Assembly (NCBI RefSeq): GCF_001677475.2
Contig: NZ_CP015229.1
Length of the DNA stretch: 64,000 bases
Origin: Escherichia coli
Lineage (GTDB): Bacteria; Pseudomonadota; Gammaproteobacteria; Enterobacterales; Enterobacteriaceae
Strand: one strand, 5' to 3'
This document shows positions 5,641 through 62,346 of the stretch, piece after piece. Position numbers and translations under genes: made by a program. Below the pieces are notes generated by a model that saw only the letters and a program-made list of their open reading frames with translations, searched no databases and was not told the origin of the DNA. Every line of letters starts with the position of its first letter. Positions within the stretch are counted from its first letter, which is position 1.

Positions 5641-6645
5641 ATGGGCGATAGTATTCTTTCTCAAGCTGAAATTGATGCGCTGTTGAATGGTGACAGCGAA
5701 GTCAAAGACGAACCGACAGCCAGTGTTAGCGGCGAAAGTGACATTCGTCCGTACGATCCGAATACCCAACGACGGGTTGTGCGCGAACGTTTGCAGGCGC
5801 TGGAAATCATTAATGAGCGCTTTGCCCGCCATTTTCGTATGGGGCTGTTCAACCTGCTGCGTCGTAGCCCGGATATAACCGTCGGGGCCATCCGCATTCA
5901 GCCGTACCATGAATTTGCCCGCAACCTGCCGGTGCCGACCAACCTGAACCTTATCCATCTGAAACCGCTGCGCGGCACAGGGCTGGTGGTGTTCTCACCG
6001 AGTCTGGTGTTTATCGCCGTGGATAACCTGTTTGGCGGCGATGGACGCTTCCCGACCAAAGTGGAAGGTCGCGAGTTTACCCATACCGAACAGCGCGTCA
6101 TCAACCGCATGTTAAAGCTGGCGCTTGAAGGCTATAGCGACGCCTGGAAGGCGATTAATCCGCTGGAAGTTGAGTACGTGCGTTCGGAAATGCAGGTGAA
6201 ATTTACCAATATCACCACCTCGCCGAACGACATTGTGGTTAACACGCCGTTCCATGTGGAGATTGGCAACCTGACCGGCGAATTTAATATCTGCCTGCCA
6301 TTCAGCATGATCGAACCGCTACGAGAATTGTTGGTTAACCCGCCGCTGGAAAACTCGCGTAATGAAGATCAGAACTGGCGCGATAACCTGGTGCGCCAGG
6401 TGCAGCATTCACAGCTGGAGCTGGTCGCCAACTTTGCCGATATCTCGCTACGCCTGTCGCAGATTTTAAAACTGAAACCTGGCGATGTCCTGCCGATAGA
6501 AAAACCCGATCGCATCATCGCTCATGTTGACGGCGTTCCGGTGCTGACCAGTCAGTACGGCACCCTCAACGGTCAATATGCGTTACGAATAGAACATTTG
6601 ATTAACCCGATTTTAAATTCTCTGAACGAGGAACAGCCCAAATGA
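5641..6645 (+). CDS. fliM: flagellar motor switch protein FliM
   Basis: ORF 5539-6645; start placed at MGDSILSQAEIDALL (334 aa) just after fliL stop. Confidence 0.9.
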   Translation: MGDSILSQAEIDALLNGDSEVKDEPTASVSGESDIRPYDPNTQRRVVRERLQALEIINERFARHFRMGLFNLLRRSPDITVGAIRIQPYHEFARNLPVPTNLNLIHLKPLRGTGLVVFSPSLVFIAVDNLFGGDGRFPTKVEGREFTHTEQRVINRMLKLALEGYSDAWKAINPLEVEYVRSEMQVKFTNITTSPNDIVVNTPFHVEIGNLTGEFNICLPFSMIEPLRELLVNPPLENSRNEDQNWRDNLVRQVQHSQLELVANFADISLRLSQILKLKPGDVLPIEKPDRIIAHVDGVPVLTSQYGTLNGQYALRIEHLINPILNSLNEEQPK

Positions 6646-9522: not shown

Positions 9523-10146
9523 ATGTCAACGATTATTATGGATTTATGTAGTTACACCCGACTAGGTTTAACCGGGTATCTGTTGAGTAGAGGGGTTAAA
9601 AAAAGAGAAATCAACGACATTGAAACCGTTGATGACCTTGCCATAGCTTGTGATTCACAGCGCCCTTCAGTGGTGTTTATTAATGAGGACTGTTTCATCC
9701 ACGATGCTTCTAACAGTCAGCGTATCAAGCTCATCATTAATCAACATCCCAATACGTTATTTATCGTTTTTATGGCAATTGCCAATGTTCATTTTGATGA
9801 ATATCTATTGGTCAGGAAAAATTTATTGATCAGTTCTAAATCGATCAAACCGGAATCTCTCGACGATATCCTTGGCGATATTCTGAAAAAAGAGACAACG
9901 GTAACCTCGTTTTTAAATATGCCGACGTTATCATTGAGCCGAACCGAATCGAGTATGTTGCGAATGTGGATGGCAGGTCAGGGAACAATTCAAATCTCCG
10001 ACCAAATGAATATCAAAGCCAAGACCGTTTCATCGCATAAAGGTAATATTAAACGTAAGATCAAAACGCATAATAAACAGGTTATCTACCATGTCGTCCG
10101 ACTGACGGATAATGTAACTAATGGTATTTTTGTCAACATGCGCTAA
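9523..10146 (+). CDS. rcsA: LuxR-family capsule synthesis regulator RcsA
   Basis: 207-aa ORF with C-terminal LuxR-type HTH; long AT-rich upstream region. Confidence 0.9.
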
Positions 10147-10152
10147 CACATT

Positions 10153-10178
10153 CTGACTGGTGGTTTCCCACCAGTCAG
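10153..10178. terminator. bidirectional intrinsic terminator between rcsA and dsrB
   Basis: perfect hairpin CTGACTGGTGG-TTTC-CCACCAGTCAG between convergent genes. Confidence 0.6.
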
Positions 10179-10189
10179 GCTGAATAAGA

Positions 10190-10468
<279 letters not shown>

Positions 10469-10540
10469 CTATACTTAAGAGATGCCAGGCGGACTTAACG
10501 ACTGGCGGCAACAACAGAGTAACGGTTGCGAGGAAAGATG

Positions 10541-10768
10541 ATGAAAACCGCAAAAGAGTACAGCGATACCGCAAAACGTGAGGTCAGCGTCGATGTCGAT
10601 GCCCTGCTGGCGGCGATCAATGAAATTAGCGAAAGCGAAGTTCATCGCAGCCAGAACGATTCTGAACACGTTAGCGTCGATGGACGTGAATATCATACAT
10701 GGCGTGAATTGGCGGATGCCTTCGAACTGGATATTCATGACTTCAGCGTCTCTGAAGTGAATCGTTGA
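10541..10768 (+). CDS. yodD: small stress-induced protein YodD
   Basis: ORF 10526-10768; start placed at MKTAKEYSDTAKREV (75 aa). Confidence 0.8.
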   Translation: MKTAKEYSDTAKREVSVDVDALLAAINEISESEVHRSQNDSEHVSVDGREYHTWRELADAFELDIHDFSVSEVNR

Positions 10769-30048: not shown

Positions 30049-31548
30049 GTGACGCTCAATACTTCTCAGGTCAGTTACTATATGACTCAGCGTAAGAAAG
30101 GTATAACTCAGCATATCTCGGCCATGAAGGCTGGTATCTCAGTCCGTTCTGGTCGTCGGATCGAAAAAGGAGAGTGGGCAAAAAACAGTGTTCGGCACTG
30201 GCGCACACGCAAAGATCCTCTGGAAGCTGTGTGGGACAGCATGCTTGTTCCTCTGTTGAAAGAGAGGCCGGCTCTGACACCAACAACTCTACTGGAGATG
30301 CTACAGGATAAATATCCCGGCCAGTACCCCAACAGCCTTCGAAGAACAATGCAACGGCGGGTTCGCGAATGGAAACTACAGTATGGTACAGAGCAGGAGG
30401 TCATGTTCCGCCAGCAACATCAGCCCGGCCTGCGAGGCCTGTCGGACTTTACTGAACTGAAAGGTGTAGTTGTCACCATCGCCGGTAAGTTGTTGGCGCA
30501 TAAGTTGTATCACTTCCGTCTGGAATGGAGCCACTGGAGCTGGATGCGGGTTGTTCTGGGTGGTGAGAGCTTCTCTGCTCTGGCTGAAGGCCTGCAGGAA
30601 GCCCTCGGACAACTGGGCGGAGTGCCGGTAGAACATAAAACGGACAGCCTGAGGGCAGCATGGAAACAACAGGGCGAAGATGGACGCCGCGAGCTGACTG
30701 AGCGTTATGCTACTCTCTGTCAGCACTACGGAATGCAGGGCGTACACAATAATGCCGGTCGGGGCCACGAAAATGGCTCGGTTGAAAGTGCCCACGGACA
30801 TCTGAAAAGGCGTATCTGTCAGGCGCTGATACTGCGGGGCAGTAACGACTTCAGCACCATAGAAGAATATCAGGCCTTCATCACTCAGCAGGTTATGCGG
30901 CACAACCGTAACAATCAGGATCTGGTCAAGGAAGAACGTCTTCATCTGAAACCGCTGCCGCTTCGTCGCAGTGCTGACTATGATGAGCTGACTGTGAGGG
31001 TTAGTCGCAGCAGTACCATCAATGTGAAGCACGTCGTCTACAGCGTACCTTCCCGGCTTGTAGGTCAACTGTTACGGGTCAGGTTATGGGACGATCGTCT
31101 GAGCTGTTACGTTGGCAGCAGCGAGGTCATGAGCTGCCCTCGCGTCAGACCAGAAAAAGGGAAGACGCGGGCCCGTCGTATCGACTTCCGACATGTGATC
31201 GACAGTCTGGCAAAAAAGCCCGGTGCGTTCTGCCATGCAACGCTGAGAAATGACATCCTGCCGGACGATGAATGGCGGAGGCTGTGGCGTCGCTTATGTA
31301 ATCATCTGGAGCCCGATATGGCAGGAAGGCTGATGGTACATGCCCTGAAACTGGCTGCAGGATACGACGATATCTCAGTCGTGGCAAAAGGTATGGAGCA
31401 GATGCTGAATACCCCGGGAAACGTGGATCTGCACCGGCTGATGCGCTTCCTGGGTATAAAAGAAAAGGCGTTGCCGGTAGTCAATGTGATACAGCATAAC
31501 CTGAGCAGTTATGAGCAACTACTGCGTGGCAAGGGAGGTTCGCAGTGA
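30049..31548 (+). CDS. istA: IS21-family transposase IstA
   Basis: 499-aa ORF, N-terminal HTH, overlaps istB. Confidence 0.8.
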   Translation: MTLNTSQVSYYMTQRKKGITQHISAMKAGISVRSGRRIEKGEWAKNSVRHWRTRKDPLEAVWDSMLVPLLKERPALTPTTLLEMLQDKYPGQYPNSLRRTMQRRVREWKLQYGTEQEVMFRQQHQPGLRGLSDFTELKGVVVTIAGKLLAHKLYHFRLEWSHWSWMRVVLGGESFSALAEGLQEALGQLGGVPVEHKTDSLRAAWKQQGEDGRRELTERYATLCQHYGMQGVHNNAGRGHENGSVESAHGHLKRRICQALILRGSNDFSTIEEYQAFITQQVMRHNRNNQDLVKEERLHLKPLPLRRSADYDELTVRVSRSSTINVKHVVYSVPSRLVGQLLRVRLWDDRLSCYVGSSEVMSCPRVRPEKGKTRARRIDFRHVIDSLAKKPGAFCHATLRNDILPDDEWRRLWRRLCNHLEPDMAGRLMVHALKLAAGYDDISVVAKGMEQMLNTPGNVDLHRLMRFLGIKEKALPVVNVIQHNLSSYEQLLRGKGGSQ

Positions 31549-32300
31549 GCAATATCCATCACCTTGAACATAGCCTGCGTAAACTACGCCTGACACGAGT
31601 TGGAGCTGAATGGCACGCTCTGGAAAAACGAGCGCTGGCAGAAGGCTGGACACCATCGCGCTATCTTCTGACGCTATGCAATGAAGAACTCCTGTGGCGC
31701 GAGAGTGAAAAACTGCGTCGTTATAAAAAGGAGGCCCGGTTGCCAGTTGCCAAAACGCTGAGCGAATACGACTTCAGTCAGGTGCCGGAACTGAATGGAG
31801 CTCAGTTCCGGCAACTCTGTGAAACGACAGACTGGGTTGATGCAGGAGAAAACGTTCTGCTGTTCGGAGCCAGCGGGTTGGGGAAAAGCCATCTGGCGGC
31901 AGCGATCGTGGATGGCGTAGTAGGTCAGGGCTACCGGGCCCGGTTCTACAGCGCAGGAGAGCTGTTGCAGGAACTACGTAAAGCCAGAGCTCAGTTGAAA
32001 CTGAATGAGCTGCTACTGAAACTGGATCGCTACCGGGTGATAGTGGTGGATGATCTTGGCTATGTCAAACGCGATAGTGCCGAAACGGGTGTGCTGTTCG
32101 AGTTAATAGCGCATCGCTATGAACGTGGGAGCCTGGTGATAACCAGTAACCATCCGTTCAGCATGTGGGGCAGCATCTTCGTGGATGAGACTATGGCGGT
32201 GGCTGCGGCAGACAGGCTGATCCATCACGGATATATGTTCGAACTGAAAGGGGAAAGCTACAGGAAAAAGACAGCGAAGGCAGTAACAAGCGCGACTTGA
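31545..32300 (+). CDS. istB: IS21-family helper ATPase IstB
   Basis: 251-aa ORF with Walker A GASGLGKSHL and Walker B VVDDLG. Confidence 0.9.
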   Translation: MSNIHHLEHSLRKLRLTRVGAEWHALEKRALAEGWTPSRYLLTLCNEELLWRESEKLRRYKKEARLPVAKTLSEYDFSQVPELNGAQFRQLCETTDWVDAGENVLLFGASGLGKSHLAAAIVDGVVGQGYRARFYSAGELLQELRKARAQLKLNELLLKLDRYRVIVVDDLGYVKRDSAETGVLFELIAHRYERGSLVITSNHPFSMWGSIFVDETMAVAAADRLIHHGYMFELKGESYRKKTAKAVTSAT

Positions 32301-41688: not shown

Positions 41689-42017
41689 CAGTTCACCACC
41701 TGTTCAAACTCTGCGCTGAACTCAACACGCAACATACTGACCCGCGACGACCATTTTGCGCAGGTCACCTTTATCTGCCGGTAGCCATAAGGCGGCGTCC
41801 ACAGAAAGGATTTCCAGCCCCCGTGCTCAGCCAGAAACGACTCAAGCGCCGTGGCCTCCCAACGGGGAACAGAAAGCGTCACGCTGTACGTTTTCAGGTC
41901 GGCATTCAGCCCGGCAGGCGCTCGCTGGGAATAGCCATCACCAAAGCGCACCTTTCTTACGGAAGGGGCCGAAGCCACATCCATACCGGGTTTCACTTTC
42001 CAGCGGAAGGTTTTCAT
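41688..42017 (-). CDS. minor tail protein M
   Basis: 109-aa ORF, lambda order. Confidence 0.85.
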   Translation of the reverse strand: MKTFRWKVKPGMDVASAPSVRKVRFGDGYSQRAPAGLNADLKTYSVTLSVPRWEATALESFLAEHGGWKSFLWTPPYGYRQIKVTCAKWSSRVSMLRVEFSAEFEQVVN

Positions 42018-44635
42018 CGTCCACCTCCGGAGAACAGACCACCATCGCGCATCTGCCCGGTCACAACATCCATTGCCGCCTTACGGGCTACGTCATAAAC
42101 AGCCTTCAGTGCCTGTGGCCCTATCTGACCGTTCGTGCCGTCGTTGTTAATCACCACATGGTTATTCTGCTCAAACGTCCCGGACGCCTGCGACCGGCTG
42201 TCCGCCATGCTGCCCGGTGTACCGACATAACCGCCGGTGGCATAGCCGCGCATCAGCCGGTAAAGATTTCCCACGCCAATCCGGCTGGTTGCCTCCTTCG
42301 TGAAGACAAACTCACCACGGTGAACAATCCCCGCTGGCTCATATTTGCCGCCGGTTCCCGTAAATCCTCCGGTCGCAAAATGGAATTTCGCCGCAGCTGC
42401 CTGAATGGCTGTACCACCTGACGCTGATGAGCCGCCACCGGCAGCACCGCCAATGGCGCTGCCGATACTCCCGACAATTCCCACCATTGCCTGCTTAAGC
42501 AGAATTTCTGTCATCATGGACAGCACGGAACGGGTGAAGCTGCGCCAGTTCTGCTCACTGCCGGTCAGCATCGCCGCCATATTCTGCGCAATACCATCAA
42601 AGGTCTGCGTGGCAGCACTTTTAACCTGCGACATACTGTCCGTGGCAGTCTCTTTCCACTCGCTCCAGCCGGACCTGAGGCCTGCCATCCAGCTCCCGCG
42701 AAGCTGGTCTTCAGCTGCCCAGGTCTTTTTCTGCTCTGACATGACGTTATTCAGCGCCAGCGGATTATCGCCATACTGTTCCTTCAGGCGCTGTTCCGTG
42801 GCTTCCCGTTCTGCCTGCCGGTCAGTCAGCCCCCGGCTTTTCGCATCAATAGCGGCCCGTTTTGCCCGTTGCTGCTGTGCGAATTTATCCGCCTGCTGCG
42901 CCAGCGCGTTCAGGCGCTCCTGATACGTAACCTTGTCGCCAAGTGCAGCCAGCTGGCGTTTATACTCCAGCGTCTCATCTTTATGCGCCAGCAGGGATTT
43001 CTCCTGTGCAGACAGCTGGCGACGTTGCGCCGCCTCCTCCAGTACCGCGAACTGACTCTCCGCCTTCCACAAATCCCGGCGCTGCTGGCTGATTTTCTCA
43101 TTCGCTCCGGCATGCTTCTCCAGCGTCCGGAGTTCTGCCTGAAGCGTCAGCAGGGCAGCATGAGCACTGTCTTCCTGACGATCGCCCGCAGACACCTTCA
43201 CGCCGGACTGTTTCGGCTTTTTCAGCGTCGCTTCATAATCCTTTTTCGCCGCCGCCATCAGCGTGTTGTAATCTGCCTGCAGGATTTTCCCGTCTTTCAG
43301 TGCCTTATTCAGTTCTTCCTGACGGGCGGTATATTTCTCCAGTGGCGTCAGCAGGCGCTCATACGCCTTCTGCGCCTCTCCGGTATACTTCAGCTGTGAC
43401 GCCTCACGCTCAGCCCGGTCCCTTGCCACCAGTTCACCGGCTTTTTCCATATCCGACTGCAGCGTGGCTGCCGCCAGCCCCAGACGGGCATTTTCACGGT
43501 CATCCCATGCACCCTGAAGGTTGGCACGGAAAGAGGAGGTCTTTCCCCGGCTCTGACTCCGGCTCTGGTACCACTGCCATTTTTTATCCGCCTCATCAAA
43601 TGCCTTCTGCGCACTGGCGAGCATATCCGCTGAGGATTCAGGACGACCGATATCCAGGATGGCATCCCACATCAATTTGAATGCCTTCCCGGTTTTATCC
43701 GCCCAGGTTTCCAGCGTCCCCATGTTTTCTTTCAGGCGACGGGTCTGCTCATCAAAGCCTTTTGTGGCGATATCGTTCGCCGCCTGTAAGGCCCCTGCCT
43801 CATCACCCGAACGCTGCAGCTGCGCAACATACGCAATCTGCTCTGCCGTCACGTTACGGAACTGGCGCGCCATAGCCATCAGTCCCGACGTCGGGTCGGT
43901 GGTCAGCTTTCCAAAAGCCTCTGCAACCTTGTCCACTTCCACACCGGATACAGAAGCAAAACGCGCCACACTCTGGTTGATGGCATCAAACTGCTCACCA
44001 CCACGCACACCGGCATTCACCAGGGCTGCCAGTGACTCACTCGCCTGGTTAAACGTCAGCCCTGCTGCCTGTCCGGCTCTGGAGAGCGTCAGCATGCGAT
44101 CGGCAGTCAGTCCGGACTGATTACCGGAAAGAACAAGGGTTTTATTAAACGCTGAAAGCGTGGAATCCCCCTGGTACCAGGCATACGCCAGCGCACCTGT
44201 CGCCACCGCCAGCGAGGTGACCCCGACCATCGGCAGGGTGATCGCACCGGCAAGCCCCCTGAACATGGGGAGCATCCCGCCGAAGGCGTCCTTCACCTGA
44301 CCGCCCTGTTGCAGCAGAATAAGCCAGGGATTCTGACCACCGGCAAGCTGCGTGGCGATATCCGTAAACTGTGCAGGCAGGGTACGCATGGCCGCTTTAT
44401 ACTGCCCGACGGAAATCCCGGCTTTTTGTGCAGCCAGCGCCTGACGGCTCAGGCCCTGTTCAACGGCAGTGGCCTGTTTCTTAAAAGACTGGCTGACACG
44501 CCCGGCCATCAAATCCGCAAGGTCACTGGTTTCACCCAGTTCTTTCTTTACCCGTGCAGCCTCTTCAGAAAAACGGGTTGAATCCAGTGTAAGAACAGCT
44601 GTCAGATCGGCAAAATTACCCGCCATAGCGTACAC
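42014..44635 (-). CDS. tail tape measure protein H
   Basis: 873-aa ORF with long coiled-coil middle and Gly-rich C-terminus. Confidence 0.85.
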   Translation of the reverse strand: MYAMAGNFADLTAVLTLDSTRFSEEAARVKKELGETSDLADLMAGRVSQSFKKQATAVEQGLSRQALAAQKAGISVGQYKAAMRTLPAQFTDIATQLAGGQNPWLILLQQGGQVKDAFGGMLPMFRGLAGAITLPMVGVTSLAVATGALAYAWYQGDSTLSAFNKTLVLSGNQSGLTADRMLTLSRAGQAAGLTFNQASESLAALVNAGVRGGEQFDAINQSVARFASVSGVEVDKVAEAFGKLTTDPTSGLMAMARQFRNVTAEQIAYVAQLQRSGDEAGALQAANDIATKGFDEQTRRLKENMGTLETWADKTGKAFKLMWDAILDIGRPESSADMLASAQKAFDEADKKWQWYQSRSQSRGKTSSFRANLQGAWDDRENARLGLAAATLQSDMEKAGELVARDRAEREASQLKYTGEAQKAYERLLTPLEKYTARQEELNKALKDGKILQADYNTLMAAAKKDYEATLKKPKQSGVKVSAGDRQEDSAHAALLTLQAELRTLEKHAGANEKISQQRRDLWKAESQFAVLEEAAQRRQLSAQEKSLLAHKDETLEYKRQLAALGDKVTYQERLNALAQQADKFAQQQRAKRAAIDAKSRGLTDRQAEREATEQRLKEQYGDNPLALNNVMSEQKKTWAAEDQLRGSWMAGLRSGWSEWKETATDSMSQVKSAATQTFDGIAQNMAAMLTGSEQNWRSFTRSVLSMMTEILLKQAMVGIVGSIGSAIGGAAGGGSSASGGTAIQAAAAKFHFATGGFTGTGGKYEPAGIVHRGEFVFTKEATSRIGVGNLYRLMRGYATGGYVGTPGSMADSRSQASGTFEQNNHVVINNDGTNGQIGPQALKAVYDVARKAAMDVVTGQMRDGGLFSGGGR

Positions 44636-45020
44636 CTCCTGGAATTCCCTCAGACACCATCATCAGCATGGCTTCATCCTCTGTACTGCTCCGCATGTCA
44701 TCACTGACCGTAACGATTTCCTTCCCGTCAGCCCCAAAGCGGACACCACCAGAAAGTCCTGCCGCTTTCCGCATCAGCATATCGTCCTCATCCGGCATCT
44801 CCGTCTGCTCATCATCACGTCGGGGTGCAAGCAGACTGAAATCCGCCGGATGCATATCCGGATCGCAAAAAAACAGGCTGAGTACGGCGTACATCAGCCC
44901 GGAAAAATGCATATCCAGCTGGGTATCCTGAAAATAATGCGTGCGGTAAAAACGGTGCCAGTCGGCATATTCGGTGGATGTCATCCCGGCAAGCATGGTG
45001 CGCCAGTCAGGCCTCCCCAT
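44616..45020 (-). CDS. tail assembly chaperone T segment (expressed as G-T fusion by -1 frameshift)
   Basis: ORF is open in the -1 frame from the slippery site at the end of G. Confidence 0.75.
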   Translation of the reverse strand: MGRPDWRTMLAGMTSTEYADWHRFYRTHYFQDTQLDMHFSGLMYAVLSLFFCDPDMHPADFSLLAPRRDDEQTEMPDEDDMLMRKAAGLSGGVRFGADGKEIVTVSDDMRSSTEDEAMLMMVSEGIPGGVRYGG

Positions 45021-45046
45021 CTCACGCGCCAGTCTGAGGGCAAAAT

Positions 45047-45478
45047 TCAGCTCGCCGTCGAAGACTTTCCCGCAGAAAAATCATCATCAGTAAGCGCATT
45101 ATTTTTCGCCACTTCGGTGATATCCGTATCCACATGAACAGGCTCACTCATCCCGGACAGACGCAACACCACGTCTTCCGCCCGGGCAATGGCATCAGCA
45201 GGCCAGGTGGTCAGGACTTCCTGCTCAATCTGCATCACAGCCTCATTCATTGACGGTGACTCCGTTTTCTGTGGATGGTTATGCCACAGGGACATCGCCA
45301 CCAGAAACGCCCCGGTTCTGACAAGGTCTTCCACGCTCACCTGCAGGTTGCCGCTGGCTTCAGCCTCTTCTGCCCGCCGTTTCAGGAGGGCAAGATGCTC
45401 AATACGCTGCAGCGCAGACAGTTCGGAAAGGGTGACGGACACGCCGTTATATTCAAATTGTTCTGTTTTCAGAAACAT
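45047..45478 (-). CDS. tail assembly chaperone G
   Basis: 143-aa ORF matching lambda G (MFLKTE...). Confidence 0.85.
   Translation of the reverse strand: MFLKTEQFEYNGVSVTLSELSALQRIEHLALLKRRAEEAEASGNLQVSVEDLVRTGAFLVAMSLWHNHPQKTESPSMNEAVMQIEQEVLTTWPADAIARAEDVVLRLSGMSEPVHVDTDITEVAKNNALTDDDFSAGKSSTAS
45065..45071 (-). promoter_or_regulatory. programmed -1 ribosomal frameshift heptamer GGGAAAG (G to GT)
   Basis: G-GGA-AAG in G zero frame 5 codons before its stop; -1 frame continues into T ORF. Confidence 0.75.
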
Positions 45479-45498: not shown

Positions 45499-46248
45499 TT
45501 AACCCGCAACACCATCCGTGACGGTAATTTCTGCCACTGCCGCAAACTGACCATTTCCGGTCACCACAGGGATCTGCGCTTTACCGGCCGCAACACCTTT
45601 CACCGTGATCGTGTTCCCTTTCACGGTAATGGTGGCGAAATTCTGATTCGCTGACGTGGCGCGGAAGGTTTTATCCGTCGCCCCTTCCGGCTGAACGGCC
45701 ACAGTCAGGGTGATATTCTGACCTTTTGCCACATTGCCCGTTGATGGCGTCACGGTAATACCGGTGACCGGCGTGATGTCCCCCTGATCTTCCGCCAGCG
45801 ACGGACGGCCGATATTGGTGATCTTCACGGTACGGGTGATCACCTCTTTGGCGGTCACCGCTTTACCAATGGCGCTCACCCAGCCACGGAACACATCCAC
45901 CGTGCCGTTCGGGAAACGGATTTTGTAGGCCCGGCTCTCACTGCTGTCAAACCAGGCGATCAAATCGCGCTGCCCTTTCTCGCCGGGCTTCCAGGCCAGC
46001 GTAAAACTGGTATCCCCTGCTGATTTCTGCCCCTGCCCGGTGGATACCCAGTCCGCATCATCATCATCCAGATAGTTATCATCGTAGGATTCTGCCGTCA
46101 TCTCGCCGGGTGTCAGATCCTTTATTTTTGCCAGGCGCGTCCACTCATCGTCTGACAGCGGGTTTGCATAAGCATCACCAGTGCCGGTGTACACCCATAG
46201 TGTGGTGCCGGAACCTTTCACCGGCTCAAGAGGATTTGGTATTGCCAT
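45499..46248 (-). CDS. major tail protein V (with C-terminal Ig-like domain)
   Basis: 249-aa ORF closely resembling lambda V. Confidence 0.9.
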
Positions 46249-47292: not shown

Positions 47293-47574
47293 TTATTCCT
47301 GTTCGACAAAAATCCGGGGATTACCGTTGTACGTGTCATAACGGGTCACCACCAGTGAGCGACCGTCAAACACAACCACATCATCGCGGGCCGGCCGGTA
47401 CTGCGCTGAAAACACCACCAGTGACAACTGACTGCCGGAAAGCGCCCCCATATCCGCAGACTCATACTCCGGTATCACGTCATACACTACGCCGTTAATC
47501 TCCGCCGTTTTCCCCATCATGCGTACGGTCGCCAGGTCCATCCGGCTGCACATTCGCGCAAACAGATCAGGCAT
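47293..47574 (-). CDS. head-tail joining protein (FII-like)
   Basis: ORF 47293-47643; start placed at MPDLFARM to avoid overlap; weak FII-like N-terminus. Confidence 0.6.
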   Translation of the reverse strand: MPDLFARMCSRMDLATVRMMGKTAEINGVVYDVIPEYESADMGALSGSQLSLVVFSAQYRPARDDVVVFDGRSLVVTRYDTYNGNPRIFVEQE

Positions 47575-47893
47575 TGATTTTAACCGCCACCGTGGTGGTG
47601 CCTGACGGCGCATGCTCCCATGCCATTCCCGCCGCCACTGCACCGTCTGCGGCAGGCTGCACAGTCCCGTCCTTCAGATAAACCGCCACACCGGCCTGAA
47701 TATCGTCGGCAGACTGTTTGGGCAGCAGGAACACGCCTTCGGCGAACCCGTCACCAGTCTCCCCGGCAGGAATATCGGTAATGGTCACTGCCACCATGCT
47801 GCCAACCACCACAGCGGCACCGCTCAGAATGGTCTGATCCCCGGCATTCACCAGCTCAATGGTGGTGCCGTCCTGTACAAAATTTTTAGCCAT
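47567..47893 (-). CDS. DUF2190-like head protein (possible head decoration/connector)
   Basis: ORF 47567-47938; start placed at MAKNFVQDG after RBS; position between capsid and FII. Confidence 0.55.
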   Translation of the reverse strand: MAKNFVQDGTTIELVNAGDQTILSGAAVVVGSMVAVTITDIPAGETGDGFAEGVFLLPKQSADDIQAGVAVYLKDGTVQPAADGAVAAGMAWEHAPSGTTTVAVKINA

Positions 47894-47979
47894 AATGCTG
47901 TCTCTCCGGACAGCCCCCGGGGGGCTGTTTTCAGGCATAAAAAAAGCCCTTTCGGGCAGTGATTGTGATAACGCGGTTA

Positions 47980-49959
47980 TCAGGCCACCGACGAACGCAC
48001 CAGCCCGCGCCAGTCAAGTGGTGCCACACCGGCATCAATACGGATTTTTGTGGCGATACCGTCAGTGGTGAAACCTTCCTGCTGGTCAATGTAGGGGGTG
48101 TCCACACCATCGAGCCAGGCCACTTCAATGGTGTCGGTGCCCTGTGCCGCAGCCAGGTACCAGGTTTTCGGATCTGCCGCATCAAGACGCGCTTCCGCAA
48201 TTACTTCGGCAAAGTTCTGGATCGGGTTAATGACACCGGCGTTTGCATCCGCCCCTTTCACACTGGCCGATTTGATGGTCTGGTTCGCCACCGTCTCCAG
48301 TGACACCGGCACCAGCATAAAGGCCGGACGGATATTCAGGGCGCGATCGCCTTCTTTCTGCAGGCGCATCATCTGACGGGCCGCATCCAGCCCGGAAACG
48401 GAGATCCCGCCGGTGGCTATATTTTTGTGATCGGTATGGAACAGGGCCTTACCGTCTGACAGTTTCGGGTTATCCGTCAGCACCTTGTAAACCAGGTCAC
48501 CAATCGTTGCCTTCGCCGCACGCCCCATCTTCATCGGCACGTCCACCAGCATATTCAGATCATCATTGATAATGGCCTGGCGGGTGATGGAGAAAATCTC
48601 CCCGTAGGTGGCCAGAGCAATGGTCTCCTTGCGATCTGAGGTGGTGATGTATTTATACTCCGCCCCCTCACGAACCTGACGCAGAGAACCAAAACCGCCC
48701 ATCCCCACGCGATACGCTGTTTTGAAGTCTGACAGGCGTCCCTTACGGGTCCACTTCTGGAAGGTTTCTTCTGATTCCTCCCAGCCCTGGATCAGCCCCT
48801 TGTTCGACACATCCAGCAGAATATTGCCAAAATCAGAGGTGCTGTGCGTCAGCGCCAGCCCGACCATCTGCATGGGGTTATAACTGGCCACCCCAATACC
48901 ACGCTCGGTCAGTGACATGCGAGCCCATTCACGCAGGGTCATCCCGTTATAGACATTATCCTTCTCGACATTTTCATATCCGGCACGGGCCAGCATCGCC
49001 TGGCGGATCCCGTCTCCCACAAAATTGCCGTTTCCGGCATAAATATGGGCCGGTGTGTTTTTGTTGGTCGGCGAGGACTCCTTGCCCATTTCATTCAGAA
49101 GGCGCTCGCGGGCCATTTCCAGCGAACAGTCAGGATCGGCCACACACTGCGCCTGAAGCGCCTGATAGCGCCCGCCAAACATGGCAAACAGATCGTTAAT
49201 GCCTGACATGCGGGCTTTCTGCTCAGCCATAACGCGGGCGCGAATGGTCGCCTCATCAGACACTGCCGGTACCGGTGATGGTTCTGTTACCGCCGGTGCA
49301 GGGATTGTCACTGTGGTATCACGCGGGGCACTGTTGTGTGGCTGCGTGATCATATTTCGGATGGATTCCGGCATCTTTTTAAATTCCTCTGTACGTGTTG
49401 ACTGAATACATGCCATTGCCTTAACGGCTGGCGTCACCTGGTCAGCAAATCCGTGTGCCAGACACTCGGCACCGGACATCCAGGTCTCATCCGCCAGCAT
49501 GGCGGCAATTTCATCGGTAGTTTTTCCGGTTTTCTGCGCATATACCGGCACCATAACCGACTCAAGTTTGTCCAGACGTTCGGCATAAGTGCGCATTTTC
49601 TCCGCATCACCACCGCTGATCCCCCAGGGTTTATGGATCATCATGAAGGCATTTTCCGGCATAATGACCGTGTCACCGGCCATCGCAATCAGGGATGCCA
49701 TCGAGGCGGCAACGCCATCCACATACACGGTAATGGCCGCACCGTGATTTTTCAGGGCATTAAAAATGGCGATGCCTTCAAAGACATCGCCACCCGGTGA
49801 GTTGATGTGGAGATTAATGTGGGTGATATCACCCAGGGCATTCATATCGCTGACAAACTGCTTCGCGGTGACGCCCCAGAAACCAATCTCGTCATAAATA
49901 TAAATATCCGCCTCACCCTGACCCCCCGCCTGCATCCTGAACCAGGATTTATTCTTCAT
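47980..49959 (-). CDS. prohead protease (ClpP/S49-like) fused to major capsid protein
   Basis: single ORF (47980-50196); start placed at MKNKSWFRMQAGG next to portal stop; protease-like N-terminal domain, capsid-like C-terminal domain. Confidence 0.75.
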   Translation of the reverse strand: MKNKSWFRMQAGGQGEADIYIYDEIGFWGVTAKQFVSDMNALGDITHINLHINSPGGDVFEGIAIFNALKNHGAAITVYVDGVAASMASLIAMAGDTVIMPENAFMMIHKPWGISGGDAEKMRTYAERLDKLESVMVPVYAQKTGKTTDEIAAMLADETWMSGAECLAHGFADQVTPAVKAMACIQSTRTEEFKKMPESIRNMITQPHNSAPRDTTVTIPAPAVTEPSPVPAVSDEATIRARVMAEQKARMSGINDLFAMFGGRYQALQAQCVADPDCSLEMARERLLNEMGKESSPTNKNTPAHIYAGNGNFVGDGIRQAMLARAGYENVEKDNVYNGMTLREWARMSLTERGIGVASYNPMQMVGLALTHSTSDFGNILLDVSNKGLIQGWEESEETFQKWTRKGRLSDFKTAYRVGMGGFGSLRQVREGAEYKYITTSDRKETIALATYGEIFSITRQAIINDDLNMLVDVPMKMGRAAKATIGDLVYKVLTDNPKLSDGKALFHTDHKNIATGGISVSGLDAARQMMRLQKEGDRALNIRPAFMLVPVSLETVANQTIKSASVKGADANAGVINPIQNFAEVIAEARLDAADPKTWYLAAAQGTDTIEVAWLDGVDTPYIDQQEGFTTDGIATKIRIDAGVAPLDWRGLVRSSVA

Positions 49960-51451
49960 GCTGGCTGTCGGTGGCCTGCTGACGCTGTTGTTCAGTTCCG
50001 GCACTGTTGCCTCCTTTGTCGTTGGCGGGGTCAGTATCAAAGACCAGCCCCAGCCTGCGGTTTTCCTCAGTTTCCGCCTTACGGCGACGTTTGACCTCAT
50101 CCGGGTTGCGCCCGCCTGCGCGGATCCAGTCGGATTCCGTCGCGGCACCACCCCGGATCTGTATCCGCCAGGCTTCAGCCTCCTTAACCGGGTCAATCCA
50201 CGGCATCACCGGACCGGAATACGTCGCGTTATATAGCGTCTTCATCTCCACATCCGCCGGAATTTTCAGCAGACCTGCCGCAACCACCATATTCAGCCAT
50301 GTCCGGTACACCGGGCGGGTTACCGCACCAATAAAACAGTCCTGCAGGATCAGGTAACCATCCGTGGACTCGACCAGCTCCTGCCGCTGGGCGCTGTAGG
50401 TGCCGTTATAGTTACGCGCCGCACTGGAAAAGCTCAGACGACTGCCAGCTGCCACTGCACGCAACTGGCCGTTGCGGAAAGTTTCAAGGTTGGGATTGGG
50501 ACGATCGGATTTGACCATGCCGATATCCTCGCCCTTGCGCAAATCGTCATAAATAATTCCCGGGGTGATATGGACTTCCCGCTCGGTTTCTTTGCTCCCC
50601 GGATCTTCATAGTCCTGTCCGTCACCTTTACGGATATACAGTCCCAGCGCCGCAGCAATACGCGCCGCTGTCAGTTCCGCATCCTCATACTCCTTAAGGG
50701 CACTGATCCGCATCAGCACCCCCGATAACATGGATGAGCCTCGCGTCTGATGCAGACGACGAGTGAACTTCAGGTGGATCATTTTTCCGGCGGCGATTTC
50801 TTTCGTATCACTCTGCCGACCACTGACCGGATAATTTTTATAAACCAGATATTTTTTCGGTCTGCCCCACTCATCAAGAAAAACCCCCTGATTCAGCCCG
50901 GCGGATTCATCACTGCGCATGGGAACAAAATCCGGCTCCATCGCTTCAAGCCAGAATGGCACTCCCGCCGTCCGTTCCAGACCGTTTCCCGCACCACTGA
51001 CCATCTGCGCAAACACTTCACCATCCCGCAGCCAGGTCCGCAGCAGTAAACGCTCAAGCACGGGACGGGTATACTGCCCTGTCACATCCGGACTCACGGA
51101 CCATTCAGCCCACAACCGGCGGATATCCGCAGCCAGCTCTGCCGCCATTTCCCCGTTTTTTCGTAATGGCTGAGGCTCCACAGTAATTCCTCTGGCACCA
51201 ATCACCCGCTCTTCAAGCTTGTCAAACACACCAATCACCAGGTCATGATTGATATCCAGAAAACGGGCCTGCTCCCGCAGGGAAACCGCGCCATATTTAC
51301 TGAGTTGATCAGCAGATCGATTTTCACGCCGGGCTTTATGTGTCCGGGTCGGTTTCACCGCCTCATAGGCCATGATTAACGCCCTTGAACGCAGTCTGGC
51401 CGCTTTCCAGCCTGGAGAGAACACGCCTATCACATCATCAATAATTGCCAT
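49949..51451 (-). CDS. portal protein (lambda B-like)
   Basis: 500-aa ORF between W-like gene and protease-capsid gene. Confidence 0.85.
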   Translation of the reverse strand: MAIIDDVIGVFSPGWKAARLRSRALIMAYEAVKPTRTHKARRENRSADQLSKYGAVSLREQARFLDINHDLVIGVFDKLEERVIGARGITVEPQPLRKNGEMAAELAADIRRLWAEWSVSPDVTGQYTRPVLERLLLRTWLRDGEVFAQMVSGAGNGLERTAGVPFWLEAMEPDFVPMRSDESAGLNQGVFLDEWGRPKKYLVYKNYPVSGRQSDTKEIAAGKMIHLKFTRRLHQTRGSSMLSGVLMRISALKEYEDAELTAARIAAALGLYIRKGDGQDYEDPGSKETEREVHITPGIIYDDLRKGEDIGMVKSDRPNPNLETFRNGQLRAVAAGSRLSFSSAARNYNGTYSAQRQELVESTDGYLILQDCFIGAVTRPVYRTWLNMVVAAGLLKIPADVEMKTLYNATYSGPVMPWIDPVKEAEAWRIQIRGGAATESDWIRAGGRNPDEVKRRRKAETEENRRLGLVFDTDPANDKGGNSAGTEQQRQQATDSQHEE

Positions 51452-60339: not shown

Positions 60340-60885
60340 TTATCTGCCAACGTAACTATTTCACCCGCAGTATGCTCAAAACGTTCAGACTCAAGTTCAA
60401 CGCTTAACGCCATGCCCCCAAGTGCCAGCGCTGCTTTTATTATGGAGCCTGATCCCATGAAAAAGTCGGCAACCAAATCTCCCGGACGCAAACAGAATGC
60501 GCTCTGTTGCCGGGAAATACGCCCGCAGGCTTTCCTTGTTGCACCCGTTCCAGCGCCCGGACAGCTTCGCCCAGATAATGTGGTTCAGCACATTAAAGCG
60601 CTCACGCATCATGATTTCGATATCAGATGCCAGGCGATGACCACAGAACAGGTAAAGACTTCCGGCGGGTTTTAATACCCACCAGAACTGCGCCAGACAC
60701 TGATCCAGCCATTTCAGGTAATCATCGTCGCCCTTCCACTGGTTATCCCAGCCCTCGGGCTTCACTTTAAAGTATGGCGGGTCTGTGACTATCAGATCGA
60801 CAGAGTTTTCCGGTAAGGTCTGGATAAATTCCAGGAAATCAGCGTTGATTAACTCGCAGCTGGATATTTTTACAGTATTAGCCAT
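60340..60885 (-). pseudogene. DNA N6-adenine/N4-cytosine methyltransferase, frameshifted
   Basis: DPPY motif in called ORF (60397-60885); FFMGSGS motif and C-terminus in another frame ending at 60340. Confidence 0.6.
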
Positions 60886-61521: not shown

Positions 61522-62346
61522 TCAATTATGTTTTAAGAATGGATAGGTAAAGAATAACAAGTGACACAGATTCAGACCAAAATGGAAAAGGGTTGCCACC
61601 CACAAGCGCCCACTCCACATCCATGACAATCCATACACAACACCAGATAACGTGGCAAATAATACAAGTAAAGCACCACCTGAATAGTGATAAAAACCAA
61701 ACAACAAAGACGCCACAATTAACGCAACCAATGGAGACGTCACTTCTGATAGCCGTGATTGAATATACCCTCTAAATAATGACTCCTCTGCCAGAGACAC
61801 AAAAAACAAATTAGCCAATATAAACTCTGGCAACCACTCTGGAAAATGAATCTCTGGCTTTAACCCACCAAAAAAAACAGCCAAAAACAGGATAAGAGGA
61901 ACAGAGAGCAACAGAGCCGCCCATTTCCACAAAGACACTTCTGATTTCACTTCTTTTTTAAAAAAAGAAGCTGTACACAGGACTAACAAAAATGGCACCA
62001 GCGCTTTATCAAAATTAAAATACATTGTATAGGGAGTGCTTTGAGGTCCGACAGTGACAGACTTTAGCACTACAGGATTGTGAAACCCTGGCCATAAATG
62101 AAAAGATAATGCTATGGCTGATAAAACTATGCCAGCTTCATATATGGATTTAGCCCAGGCGTTATATTTCCAGTTGAACTTCAAAATAATAAAAAAAACG
62201 ATTGTAGCAACAAAAAACAACACCGGCCAATCAATAATATCATTAAGCACAGCCAGGACAACAGACACCGTCAACAATGAAAAAGCCACTACCTTATGCC
62301 AACTGAGAGTTGACAGTGACAGTGCTAACACAATCCACATAAACAC
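61522..62346 (-). CDS. CPBP-family (CAAX protease / Abi-domain) intramembrane metalloprotease
   Basis: 274-aa polytopic ORF with EESLFRGY and FGFYHY motifs; visibly AT-rich. Confidence 0.7.
   Translation of the reverse strand: MFMWIVLALSLSTLSWHKVVAFSLLTVSVVLAVLNDIIDWPVLFFVATIVFFIILKFNWKYNAWAKSIYEAGIVLSAIALSFHLWPGFHNPVVLKSVTVGPQSTPYTMYFNFDKALVPFLLVLCTASFFKKEVKSEVSLWKWAALLLSVPLILFLAVFFGGLKPEIHFPEWLPEFILANLFFVSLAEESLFRGYIQSRLSEVTSPLVALIVASLLFGFYHYSGGALLVLFATLSGVVYGLSWMWSGRLWVATLFHFGLNLCHLLFFTYPFLKHN

What the first reader, a model, noticed from the sequence alone, without database searches (positions are those of the whole stretch)
45047..45071. Conserved G/GT programmed frameshift site
The lambda slippery heptamer GGGAAAG occurs in the G zero frame five codons before its stop, and the -1 frame runs without a stop into the T ORF. 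This is textbook conservation, included as a check that the tail module is intact.
Basis: partly seen in the sequence, partly recalled or inferred. Interest (0 to 1): 0.2.

Follow-up and report, generated by a model that had tools for sequence, protein, structure and literature searches.

The report
Lambda-type G/GT tail-chaperone frameshift site
This is the well-known ribosomal "slip" site that lets a lambda-like prophage of E. coli make two tail-assembly helper proteins (G and the longer GT) from one message; it is intact and entirely ordinary.

Summary
GGGAAAG lies at 45071→45065 in the phase G GGA AAG of a 143-aa gpG homologue (45478→45047). Five sense codons and a TGA follow it. The -1 frame then runs 151 codons without a stop to TAA at 44618→44616 and encodes a gpT homologue.

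The inferred 287-aa GT fusion aligns colinearly with lambda gpGT across the junction (70% identity, E 2e-144). The gene order is Z-U-V-G-T-H-M-L-K-I-J, all full length.

The bare heptamer is not enriched in the window (9 found, 7.8 expected). The evidence is context and homology:
- The heptamer, its phase and its distance to the stop are identical in 79 of 81 sequences examined, including lambda.
- Substitutions in the overlap favour the -1 frame.
- NCBI's curated T model matches 11 positions upstream of the ATG that RefSeq uses as the T start.

No convincing RNA stimulator was found downstream.

Verdict: this is a textbook -1 programmed ribosomal frameshift, already known, and matches to this segment occur in 3,488 of 5,426 complete E. 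coli genomes. Production of the fusion is inferred by homology and was not shown here. Interest is very low. The only practical point is that RefSeq annotates G and T as separate genes rather than as a slippage product.

The parts
45047..45478 (-). Gene G: tail assembly chaperone gpG homologue, 143 aa, the zero-frame product
   Evidence: ORF and translation; PF06894 E 2.6e-50; TIGR01674 equivalog, 166.6 bits; 87% mean DNA column identity to lambda G-T
45065..45071 (-). Slippery heptamer G GGA AAG (X XXY YYZ), the inferred site of the -1 tandem tRNA slip (Gly-Lys in both frames)
   Evidence: Position and phase; identical to lambda's at J02459 10109..10115; conserved in 79 of 81 sequences examined; lambda slippery sequence given as GGGAAAG in PMC3296357 Table 1
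45047..45064 (-). Zero-frame tail of G after the heptamer: TCT TCG ACG GCG AGC + TGA (SSTAS*), overlapping the first -1 frame codons of the T segment
   Evidence: All 4 variable sites here are non-synonymous in the zero frame, while 3 of 4 fall on third positions of the -1 frame
44616..45071 (-). -1 frame reading from GGG AAA through the T segment to TAA (151 codons + stop); the T domain exists only as the C-terminal part of GT
   Evidence: Translation without a stop; PF06223 E 1.1e-13; TIGR01715 matches profile positions 1-110 only when sequence upstream of the ATG is included
44616..45478 (-). Whole G-T unit encoding the inferred 287-aa GT fusion (G residues 1-138 + 149 residues in the -1 frame)
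   Evidence: Fusion built; 70% identity to lambda gpGT (279 aa), colinear, E 2e-144
45018..45020 (-). Internal ATG that RefSeq/PGAP uses as the start of a separate 'tail assembly protein T' (134 aa); probably not a real initiation codon
   Evidence: ORF list; RefSeq annotation of the 99.9% identical N96 locus; the -1 frame peptide upstream of it is conserved with lambda and belongs to the curated T profile; only GTGAG lies directly next to the ATG, with no spaced Shine-Dalgarno (read)
45081..45089 (-). Three tandem TGA codons in the -1 frame (TGATGATGA; zero frame ..T DDD..) ending 9 nt upstream of the heptamer, so the -1 ORF opens only at TTT TTC TGC GGG
   Evidence: -1 frame reads ...***FFCGKVFD...; present in all non-lambda contexts
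42014..44626 (-). Gene H: tape measure protein, ATG at 44626 with AGGAGG at 44640..44635, overlapping the end of T by 11 nt; the binding partner of G and GT
   Evidence: PF06791 E 2.1e-68 and PF09718; start read and consistent with the 2613-nt RefSeq CDS
45499..46248 (-). Gene V: major tail tube protein with a C-terminal Big_2 domain, immediately upstream of G; the partner of the T domain
   Evidence: PF16461 E 8.3e-67 and PF02368

Best explanation
This is the G/GT -1 programmed ribosomal frameshift site of a lambda-type tail module in an E. coli prophage. Most ribosomes translating G read G GGA AAG in the zero frame, add SSTAS and stop, giving the 143-aa chaperone G. A small minority (about 3-4% in lambda) slip back one base while the Gly and Lys tRNAs sit on GGA AAG and re-pair with GGG AAA. 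They then continue in the -1 frame for 149 more codons and make a 287-aa GT fusion. By analogy with lambda, many G molecules and a few GT molecules coat the tape measure protein H through their G part, and the T part recruits the tube protein V. The roughly 30:1 ratio fixed by the slip frequency is what tail assembly requires. Shown here: the sequence anatomy, the homology, the synteny, the conservation and the frame-specific selection. Inferred from lambda: that slipping occurs, its frequency and the chaperone roles.
For: Heptamer position, phase and open -1 frame. G and T belong to the curated lambda G and T families above their cutoffs. Order V-G-T-H within a complete Z..J tail module. DNA alignment with lambda shows a conserved stretch TTTCTGCGGGAAAGT.TTCGACGG.GAGCTGA directly after a highly divergent, indel-containing G C-terminal region. 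The fusion aligns with lambda gpGT across the junction, 70% identity, E 2e-144. In 79 of 81 sequences examined (the window, lambda, E. coli N96 and 76 of 78 IMG/VR loci; 18 distinct 90-nt contexts) the heptamer is identical, in phase and 5 codons before the stop. The overlap evolves as -1 frame coding sequence: there are 6 different zero-frame tails (SSTAS, PSTAS, SSKAS, SSTVS, FSTAS, CSTVS), while the -1 peptide GKVFDGELNFALRLAREMGR is nearly invariant. TIGR01715 matches from profile position 1 and scores 200.1 bits with the pre-ATG sequence, but only from position 12 and 184.3 bits when started at the ATG. Literature on lambda: slippery GGGAAAG, about 96% zero frame, dependence on tRNA-Lys mnm5s2U (PMC3296357; PMC7618472); 30:1 ratio, G binds H and T binds V (PMC5009743).
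Against: No expression or protein data exist for this locus. The heptamer alone is at chance frequency in the window. The related loci are close relatives and not independent, so the conservation counts overstate the evidence. An ATG preceded by GTGAG exists in the T frame and RefSeq annotates T from it. It is not known whether this prophage is inducible. An IS21-type element sits next to its tail-fibre end.
Confidence: 0.93

Rival explanations
1. G and T are two independent genes: T is translated on its own from ATG 45020, as RefSeq annotates it, and the in-phase heptamer is irrelevant.
For: A 134-aa ATG-started ORF exists. RefSeq/PGAP annotates 'phage tail assembly protein T' from that ATG in the 99.9% identical N96 locus and other genomes.
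Against: The 17 -1 frame codons between the heptamer and the ATG are conserved as protein with lambda (2 differences) while the zero-frame reading of the same bases varies freely. The curated T profile extends 11 positions upstream of the ATG and scores higher with them. No properly spaced Shine-Dalgarno precedes the ATG, in contrast to AGGAGG 8 nt before the H start. In lambda the T sequence is described only as part of the frameshift product gpGT (PMC5009743).
Confidence: 0.04
2. Chance or relic: the heptamer and the open -1 frame are inherited sequence in a decaying, never-expressed prophage, so there is no functioning recoding event today.
For: The heptamer occurs at chance frequency. 8.7% of ORF ends in the window have a -1 frame open for at least 151 codons. 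Two related loci carry lesions (L004 has a 1-nt deletion in the T-run, L003 a premature stop in G). An IS21-like element abuts the prophage end.
Against: All tail genes are full length. The site is exactly conserved with frame-specific purifying selection. This reading concerns whether the prophage is expressed, not what the site is.
Confidence: 0.02
3. The GT fusion arises by transcriptional slippage (RNA polymerase stuttering) rather than by ribosomal slippage.
For: Short homopolymer runs are present (AAA in the heptamer, TTTTT 5 nt upstream).
Against: Established knowledge: productive transcriptional slippage needs runs of about 7 or more identical bases, and the runs here are 3 and 5. In lambda the ratio responds to the modification state of tRNA-Lys, which is a translational effect (PMC3296357).
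Confidence: 0.01

Closest known systems
Bacteriophage lambda G/GT -1 programmed ribosomal frameshift (Levin, Hendrix & Casjens 1993; J02459 heptamer at 10109..10115)
   Same: Identical heptamer GGGAAAG, the same phase, the same 5 codons to a TGA stop, the same conserved flanks (TTTCTGC upstream, T.TTCGACGG.GAGCTGA downstream), the same gene order V-G-T-H, and T ending inside the H start. GT is 70% identical over its full length.
   Different: G is 143 aa rather than 140 and GT is 287 aa rather than 279, because of indels in the variable G linker and in the acidic T region. The zero-frame tail is SSTAS rather than CSTVS. This clade has TGATGATGA plus a T5 run just upstream, which lambda lacks. 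The tail module is joined to a non-lambda head module with a ClpP-capsid fusion.
Conserved tail assembly chaperone frameshift of long-tailed dsDNA phages (Xu, Hendrix & Duda 2004), e.g. TP901-1 gpG/gpGT
   Same: [quoted passage not shown]
   Different: Those cases share position and logic but usually have no detectable sequence similarity and use other slippery sequences. Here sequence-level homology to lambda is direct.
E. coli dnaX -1 frameshift (A AAA AAG; gamma/tau subunits)
   Same: A bacterial -1 tandem slip with tRNA-Lys on AAG in the A site, producing two products from one gene.
   Different: From general knowledge, dnaX frameshifts at about 50% with an upstream Shine-Dalgarno-like element and a downstream stem-loop as stimulators. 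Here no SD-like element is seen in the 20 nt upstream, the downstream fold is not significant, and the expected efficiency is a few percent.

Membership tests
Lambda-type G/GT tail assembly chaperone -1 programmed frameshift | Upstream ORF is a gpG-family tail assembly chaperone | tested here: met
   PF06894 E 2.6e-50; TIGR01674 equivalog, 166.6 bits against a cutoff of 74.45
Lambda-type G/GT tail assembly chaperone -1 programmed frameshift | Downstream overlapping ORF in the -1 frame is a gpT-family sequence | tested here: met
   PF06223 E 1.1e-13; TIGR01715 equivalog, 200.1 bits against a cutoff of 77.35 on the fusion; the frame relation is shown
Lambda-type G/GT tail assembly chaperone -1 programmed frameshift | The pair lies between the major tail tube gene and the tape measure gene | tested here: met
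   V (PF16461) at 45499-46248 and H (PF06791, PF09718) at 42014-44626 flank G-T on the same strand
Lambda-type G/GT tail assembly chaperone -1 programmed frameshift | Slippery heptamer X XXY YYZ in zero-frame phase near the 3' end of G | tested here: met
   G GGA AAG at 45071..45065, 5 codons before the stop; identical to lambda
Lambda-type G/GT tail assembly chaperone -1 programmed frameshift | -1 frame open from the heptamer to the end of T | tested here: met
   151 codons without a stop
Lambda-type G/GT tail assembly chaperone -1 programmed frameshift | Site conserved among relatives, with selection on the -1 frame across the overlap | tested here: met
   79 of 81 sequences keep the heptamer, phase and spacing; 3 of 4 variable overlap sites fall on -1 frame third positions and all 4 are non-synonymous in the zero frame. 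Caveat: the relatives are close and not independent.
Lambda-type G/GT tail assembly chaperone -1 programmed frameshift | T has no independent translation start and is made only as the GT fusion | tested here: inconclusive
   An ATG exists at 45020 and RefSeq uses it. Conserved -1 coding sequence and the T profile extend upstream of it, and no spaced SD is visible. Absence of initiation cannot be proved from sequence.
Lambda-type G/GT tail assembly chaperone -1 programmed frameshift | A GT fusion protein is actually produced at a low fixed ratio (about 1:30) and is required for tail assembly | not testable with these tools
   Needs expression, immunoblot or mass spectrometry, and genetics. Known for lambda only (PMC5009743; PMC3296357).
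Stimulator-dependent -1 PRF (dnaX or retrovirus type: downstream stem-loop or pseudoknot, or upstream SD) | Significantly stable or covarying RNA structure 5-9 nt downstream of the heptamer | tested here: inconclusive
   Both the window and lambda MFE folds contain an 8-bp helix (CGGCGAGC / GCUUGCCG) starting 7 nt after the heptamer. However, the fold z-scores are -0.76 and -1.55, and across 14 unique sequences there are only one-sided changes (C-G to U-G) and no compensatory pair. Both arms encode conserved T residues.

The most novel reading that the evidence does not exclude
In this E. coli prophage clade, but not in lambda, the heptamer is preceded by GAT GAT GAT TTT TCT: three -1 frame TGA stops and then a T5 run, with the -1 frame opening exactly at TTT TTC TGC GGG. 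A P-site slip of tRNA-Phe on U UUU would also enter the open T frame. The clade might therefore use two adjacent shift-prone sites and so have a different G:GT ratio from lambda, with the triple stop discarding any earlier slips. Nothing here tests this. The arrangement may simply reflect the Asp-Asp-Asp-Phe-Ser coding sequence of the G linker.
Probability: 0.04. Interest if true: 0.2.

Novelty: already known. Interest (0 to 1): 0.04.

Why it matters
It matters little as a discovery. It confirms that this prophage's lambda-type tail module, including its recoding signal, is intact, which is consistent with a prophage still able to build tails. The practical value concerns annotation. RefSeq lists G and a 134-aa T started at an internal ATG as separate genes, although matches to this segment occur in 3,488 of 5,426 complete E. 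coli genomes. The 287-aa GT fusion is thus absent from the annotation checked, and T is annotated about 17 residues short at its N-terminal side.

Tried and rejected
1. Enrichment of the bare heptamer gave none (9 found, 7.84 expected), so it cannot be used as evidence.
2. A mechanical scan for other in-phase slippery sites with long -1 extensions gave three further hits. T TTA AAT at 6612 is the fliM/fliN ATGA junction. A AAA AAA at about 23717 is the hprR/hprS TAATG junction. CCCTTTC at 47947 is on the non-coding strand of the head genes. None is supported as recoding.
3. A downstream stimulatory RNA structure was tested. The folds are no better than shuffles, and a shared 8-bp helix has no compensatory changes, so this stays inconclusive and is not claimed.
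4. No upstream SD-like stimulator is visible in the 20 nt before the heptamer.
5. Transcriptional slippage was rejected because the homopolymer runs are too short.
6. Independent initiation of T was judged unlikely.
7. Xu et al. 2013 (PMC3762263) is not held in the library. Levin et al. 1993 is cited only through reviews.
8. A search for terminal inverted repeats of the IS21-like element found none convincing.
9. I ran no further search on more distant relatives, because the answer would not change.

Full report
**Observation.** All genes around the finding run on the minus strand. The ORF 45478→45047 encodes 143 aa, from MFLKTEQFEYNGV to DDDFSAGKSSTAS. GGGAAAG occurs once in it, at offset 407 (window 45071→45065). 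Since 407 mod 3 = 2, the zero-frame phase is G GGA AAG. It is followed by TCT TCG ACG GCG AGC TGA, which is five sense codons and the stop at 45049→45047. Read from GGG, the -1 frame gives GKVFDGELNFALRLAREMGRPDWRTMLAGM...GGVRYGG, 151 codons with no stop before TAA at 44618→44616.

**Is it more than chance?** The heptamer on its own is not. It occurs 9 times in the window against 7.84 ± 2.87 in dinucleotide-preserving shuffles. A mechanical scan looked for any in-phase X XXY YYZ in the last 40 codons of an ORF of at least 100 codons, with at least 100 open -1 codons. It returned 4 sites among 172 ORFs. Two of the other three are ordinary gene junctions: fliM/fliN at 6612 and hprR/hprS at about 23717. 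The third is a shadow ORF on the non-coding strand. A -1 frame open for at least 151 codons has a random expectation of 0.25% but is seen at 8.7% of ORF ends here, because neighbouring genes often lie in that frame. The significance therefore rests on homology, synteny and conservation.

**What it is.** The upstream protein is a lambda gpG equivalog (PF06894, E 2.6e-50; TIGR01674, 166.6 bits against a cutoff of 74.45). The -1 frame product is a gpT equivalog (PF06223, E 1.1e-13; TIGR01715). The flanking genes are:
- a lambda-type tail tube protein V with a Big_2 domain (45499-46248);
- the tape measure protein H (42014-44626; PF06791 and PF09718);
- U and Z upstream, and M, L, K, I, J, lom, a side tail fibre and a DUF4376 fibre-assembly protein downstream.

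All of these are full-length ORFs. H starts at ATG 44626, behind AGGAGG, and overlaps the end of T by 11 nt. This agrees with the RefSeq CDS in the 99.9% identical locus of E. coli N96.

**Comparison with lambda.** I aligned the 863-nt G-T segment with lambda 9711-10549 (J02459). The last ~60 nt of G before the site are highly divergent and contain indels. Identity then returns abruptly at TTTCTGCGGGAAAGT(C/G)TTCGACGG(C/T)GAGCTGA and continues into T. Lambda's heptamer lies at 10109-10115, in the same phase and also 5 codons before a TGA. The GenBank T feature starts at 10115. The inferred 287-aa fusion (G residues 1-138 plus 149 residues in the -1 frame) aligns colinearly with lambda gpGT (279 aa). 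Identity is 70%, E is 2e-144, and the junction ...SAGKVFDGEL... is matched exactly.

**Conservation and frame-specific selection.**
- A scan of IMG/VR returned 80 related loci.
- The end of G could be examined in 81 sequences: the window, lambda, E. coli N96 and 78 IMG/VR loci. Of these, 79 carry GGGAAAG in phase, 5 codons before the stop, with 18 distinct 90-nt contexts.
- The two exceptions are damaged copies or assembly errors. L004 has a 1-nt deletion in the upstream T-run and L003 has a premature stop in G.
- In the 18-nt overlap all four variable sites change the G tail, giving SSTAS, PSTAS, SSKAS, SSTVS, FSTAS and CSTVS. Three of the four are third positions in the -1 frame, where GKVFDGELNFALRLAREMGR is nearly invariant.
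- NCBI's curated T model matches profile positions 1-110 and scores 200.1 bits when the pre-ATG -1 sequence is included. On the ATG-started ORF it matches only positions 12-110 and scores 184.3 bits.
- Together these results show that the T reading frame is translated from upstream of the ATG at 45020, that is, by entry from G.
- These relatives are close (64-99% identical) and not independent, so the counts overstate the evidence.

**Mechanism.** Shown here: a canonical tandem-slip heptamer in phase, an open and conserved -1 frame, and homology to the lambda proteins. Inferred from lambda:
- About 96% of ribosomes stay in frame and make G. A few percent slip back one base, with the Gly and Lys tRNAs moving from GGA AAG to GGG AAA, and make GT (PMC3296357).
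- The slip frequency depends on the mnm5s2U34 modification of tRNA-Lys (PMC3296357; PMC7618472).
- The G:GT ratio of about 30:1 is critical for tail assembly. G and the G part of GT bind the tape measure protein, and the T part binds the major tail protein. Neither G nor GT is in the virion (PMC5009743; PMC4493119).

**Stimulators.** No SD-like element lies in the 20 nt upstream. The 100 nt downstream fold no better than shuffles, with z = -0.76 for the window and -1.55 for lambda. Both MFE folds share an 8-bp helix, CGGCGAGC/GCUUGCCG, that starts 7 nt after the heptamer. Across 14 unique sequences it shows only one-sided changes and no compensatory pairs, and both arms encode conserved T residues. 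I leave it as inconclusive.

**Rivals.**
- Independent initiation of T at ATG 45020 is what RefSeq annotates. It is contradicted by the conserved pre-ATG coding sequence and by the lack of a spaced SD.
- A chance or relic reading is contradicted by the exact conservation and the complete module.
- Transcriptional slippage is implausible with homopolymer runs of only 3 and 5 bases.

**Context.** Positions 1 to about 29200 of the window are E. coli chromosome, running from the fli operon to hchA, hprRS, hiuH, msrPQ, zinT and yodB. The prophage occupies the rest. Its lambda-type tail module is joined to a non-lambda head module with a ClpP-like protease/major capsid fusion, a cement protein, a lambda-family portal and a gpA-type terminase. 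Matches to the G-T segment occur in 3,488 of 5,426 complete E. coli genomes, with a median of 2 copies per genome that has any.

**Verdict.** This is the textbook lambda G/GT programmed -1 frameshift in a common E. coli lambdoid prophage. It is already known and of very low interest. The only useful by-product is that RefSeq annotates T as a separate ATG-started gene rather than as a slippage product.

Noticed in passing
window 45018-45020 (minus); L002 6459-6863: RefSeq/PGAP annotates G and a 134-aa 'tail assembly protein T' started at an internal ATG as separate genes, with no ribosomal-slippage join. Matches to this segment occur in 3,488 of 5,426 complete E. coli genomes, so the GT fusion is missing from the annotation checked.
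   Followed up: partly
window 45076-45089 (minus): Three tandem -1 frame TGA codons (TGATGATGA) and a T5 run lie directly upstream of the heptamer, so the T frame opens only 9 nt before the slip site. This is present in all non-lambda relatives and absent from lambda. It could be a second weak shift site, or it could just be the DDDFS coding sequence.
   Followed up: partly
window 44987-45057 (minus): An 8-bp helix CGGCGAGC/GCUUGCCG starting 7 nt after the heptamer is predicted in both the window and lambda. It is conserved in 14 unique sequences but has no compensatory changes, and the fold z-scores are not significant.
   Followed up: yes
window 6612-6645 (plus): T TTA AAT lies in phase 8 codons before the fliM stop, with the -1 frame running into fliN (ATGA overlap). 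A slip there would give a FliM-FliN fusion. It is most likely coincidence at an ordinary coupled gene junction.
   Followed up: partly
window 23705-23720 (minus): A AAA AAA lies immediately before the hprR stop, which overlaps the hprS start (TAATG). It was flagged by the mechanical scan but is an ordinary translationally coupled junction of a two-component system.
   Followed up: yes
window 30049-32300 (plus): An IS21-family pair (a 499-aa transposase-like ORF with a Mu-transposase C domain, plus a 251-aa IstB ATPase) sits between the chromosomal yodB side and the prophage tail-fibre assembly gene. The equivalent locus of E. coli GB089 lacks it. No terminal inverted repeats were found with the settings used.
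   Followed up: partly
window 47980-50196 (minus): The head module is not lambda-like. A single 738-aa ORF fuses a ClpP-like prohead protease to the major capsid protein, followed by a cement protein (47567-47938) and a Gifsy-2-type head-tail protein. The prophage is therefore a mosaic of a non-lambda head and a lambda tail.
   Followed up: partly
L004 ~1885-1910; L003 1501-1875: Two related IMG/VR loci have lesions at or near the site. L004 has lost one T from the T5 run, which throws G into the +1 frame. L003 has a premature stop in G upstream of an otherwise intact heptamer. These may be decay or assembly errors.
   Followed up: no
window 61522-62346 and 60397-60885 (minus); 29468-29971 (plus): Accessory genes in or beside the prophage: an Rce1-like CAAX protease-family membrane protein, a short DNA methylase-domain ORF (162 aa, matching only half of the profile) and an ORF6N-domain protein at the chromosome junction.
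   Followed up: no
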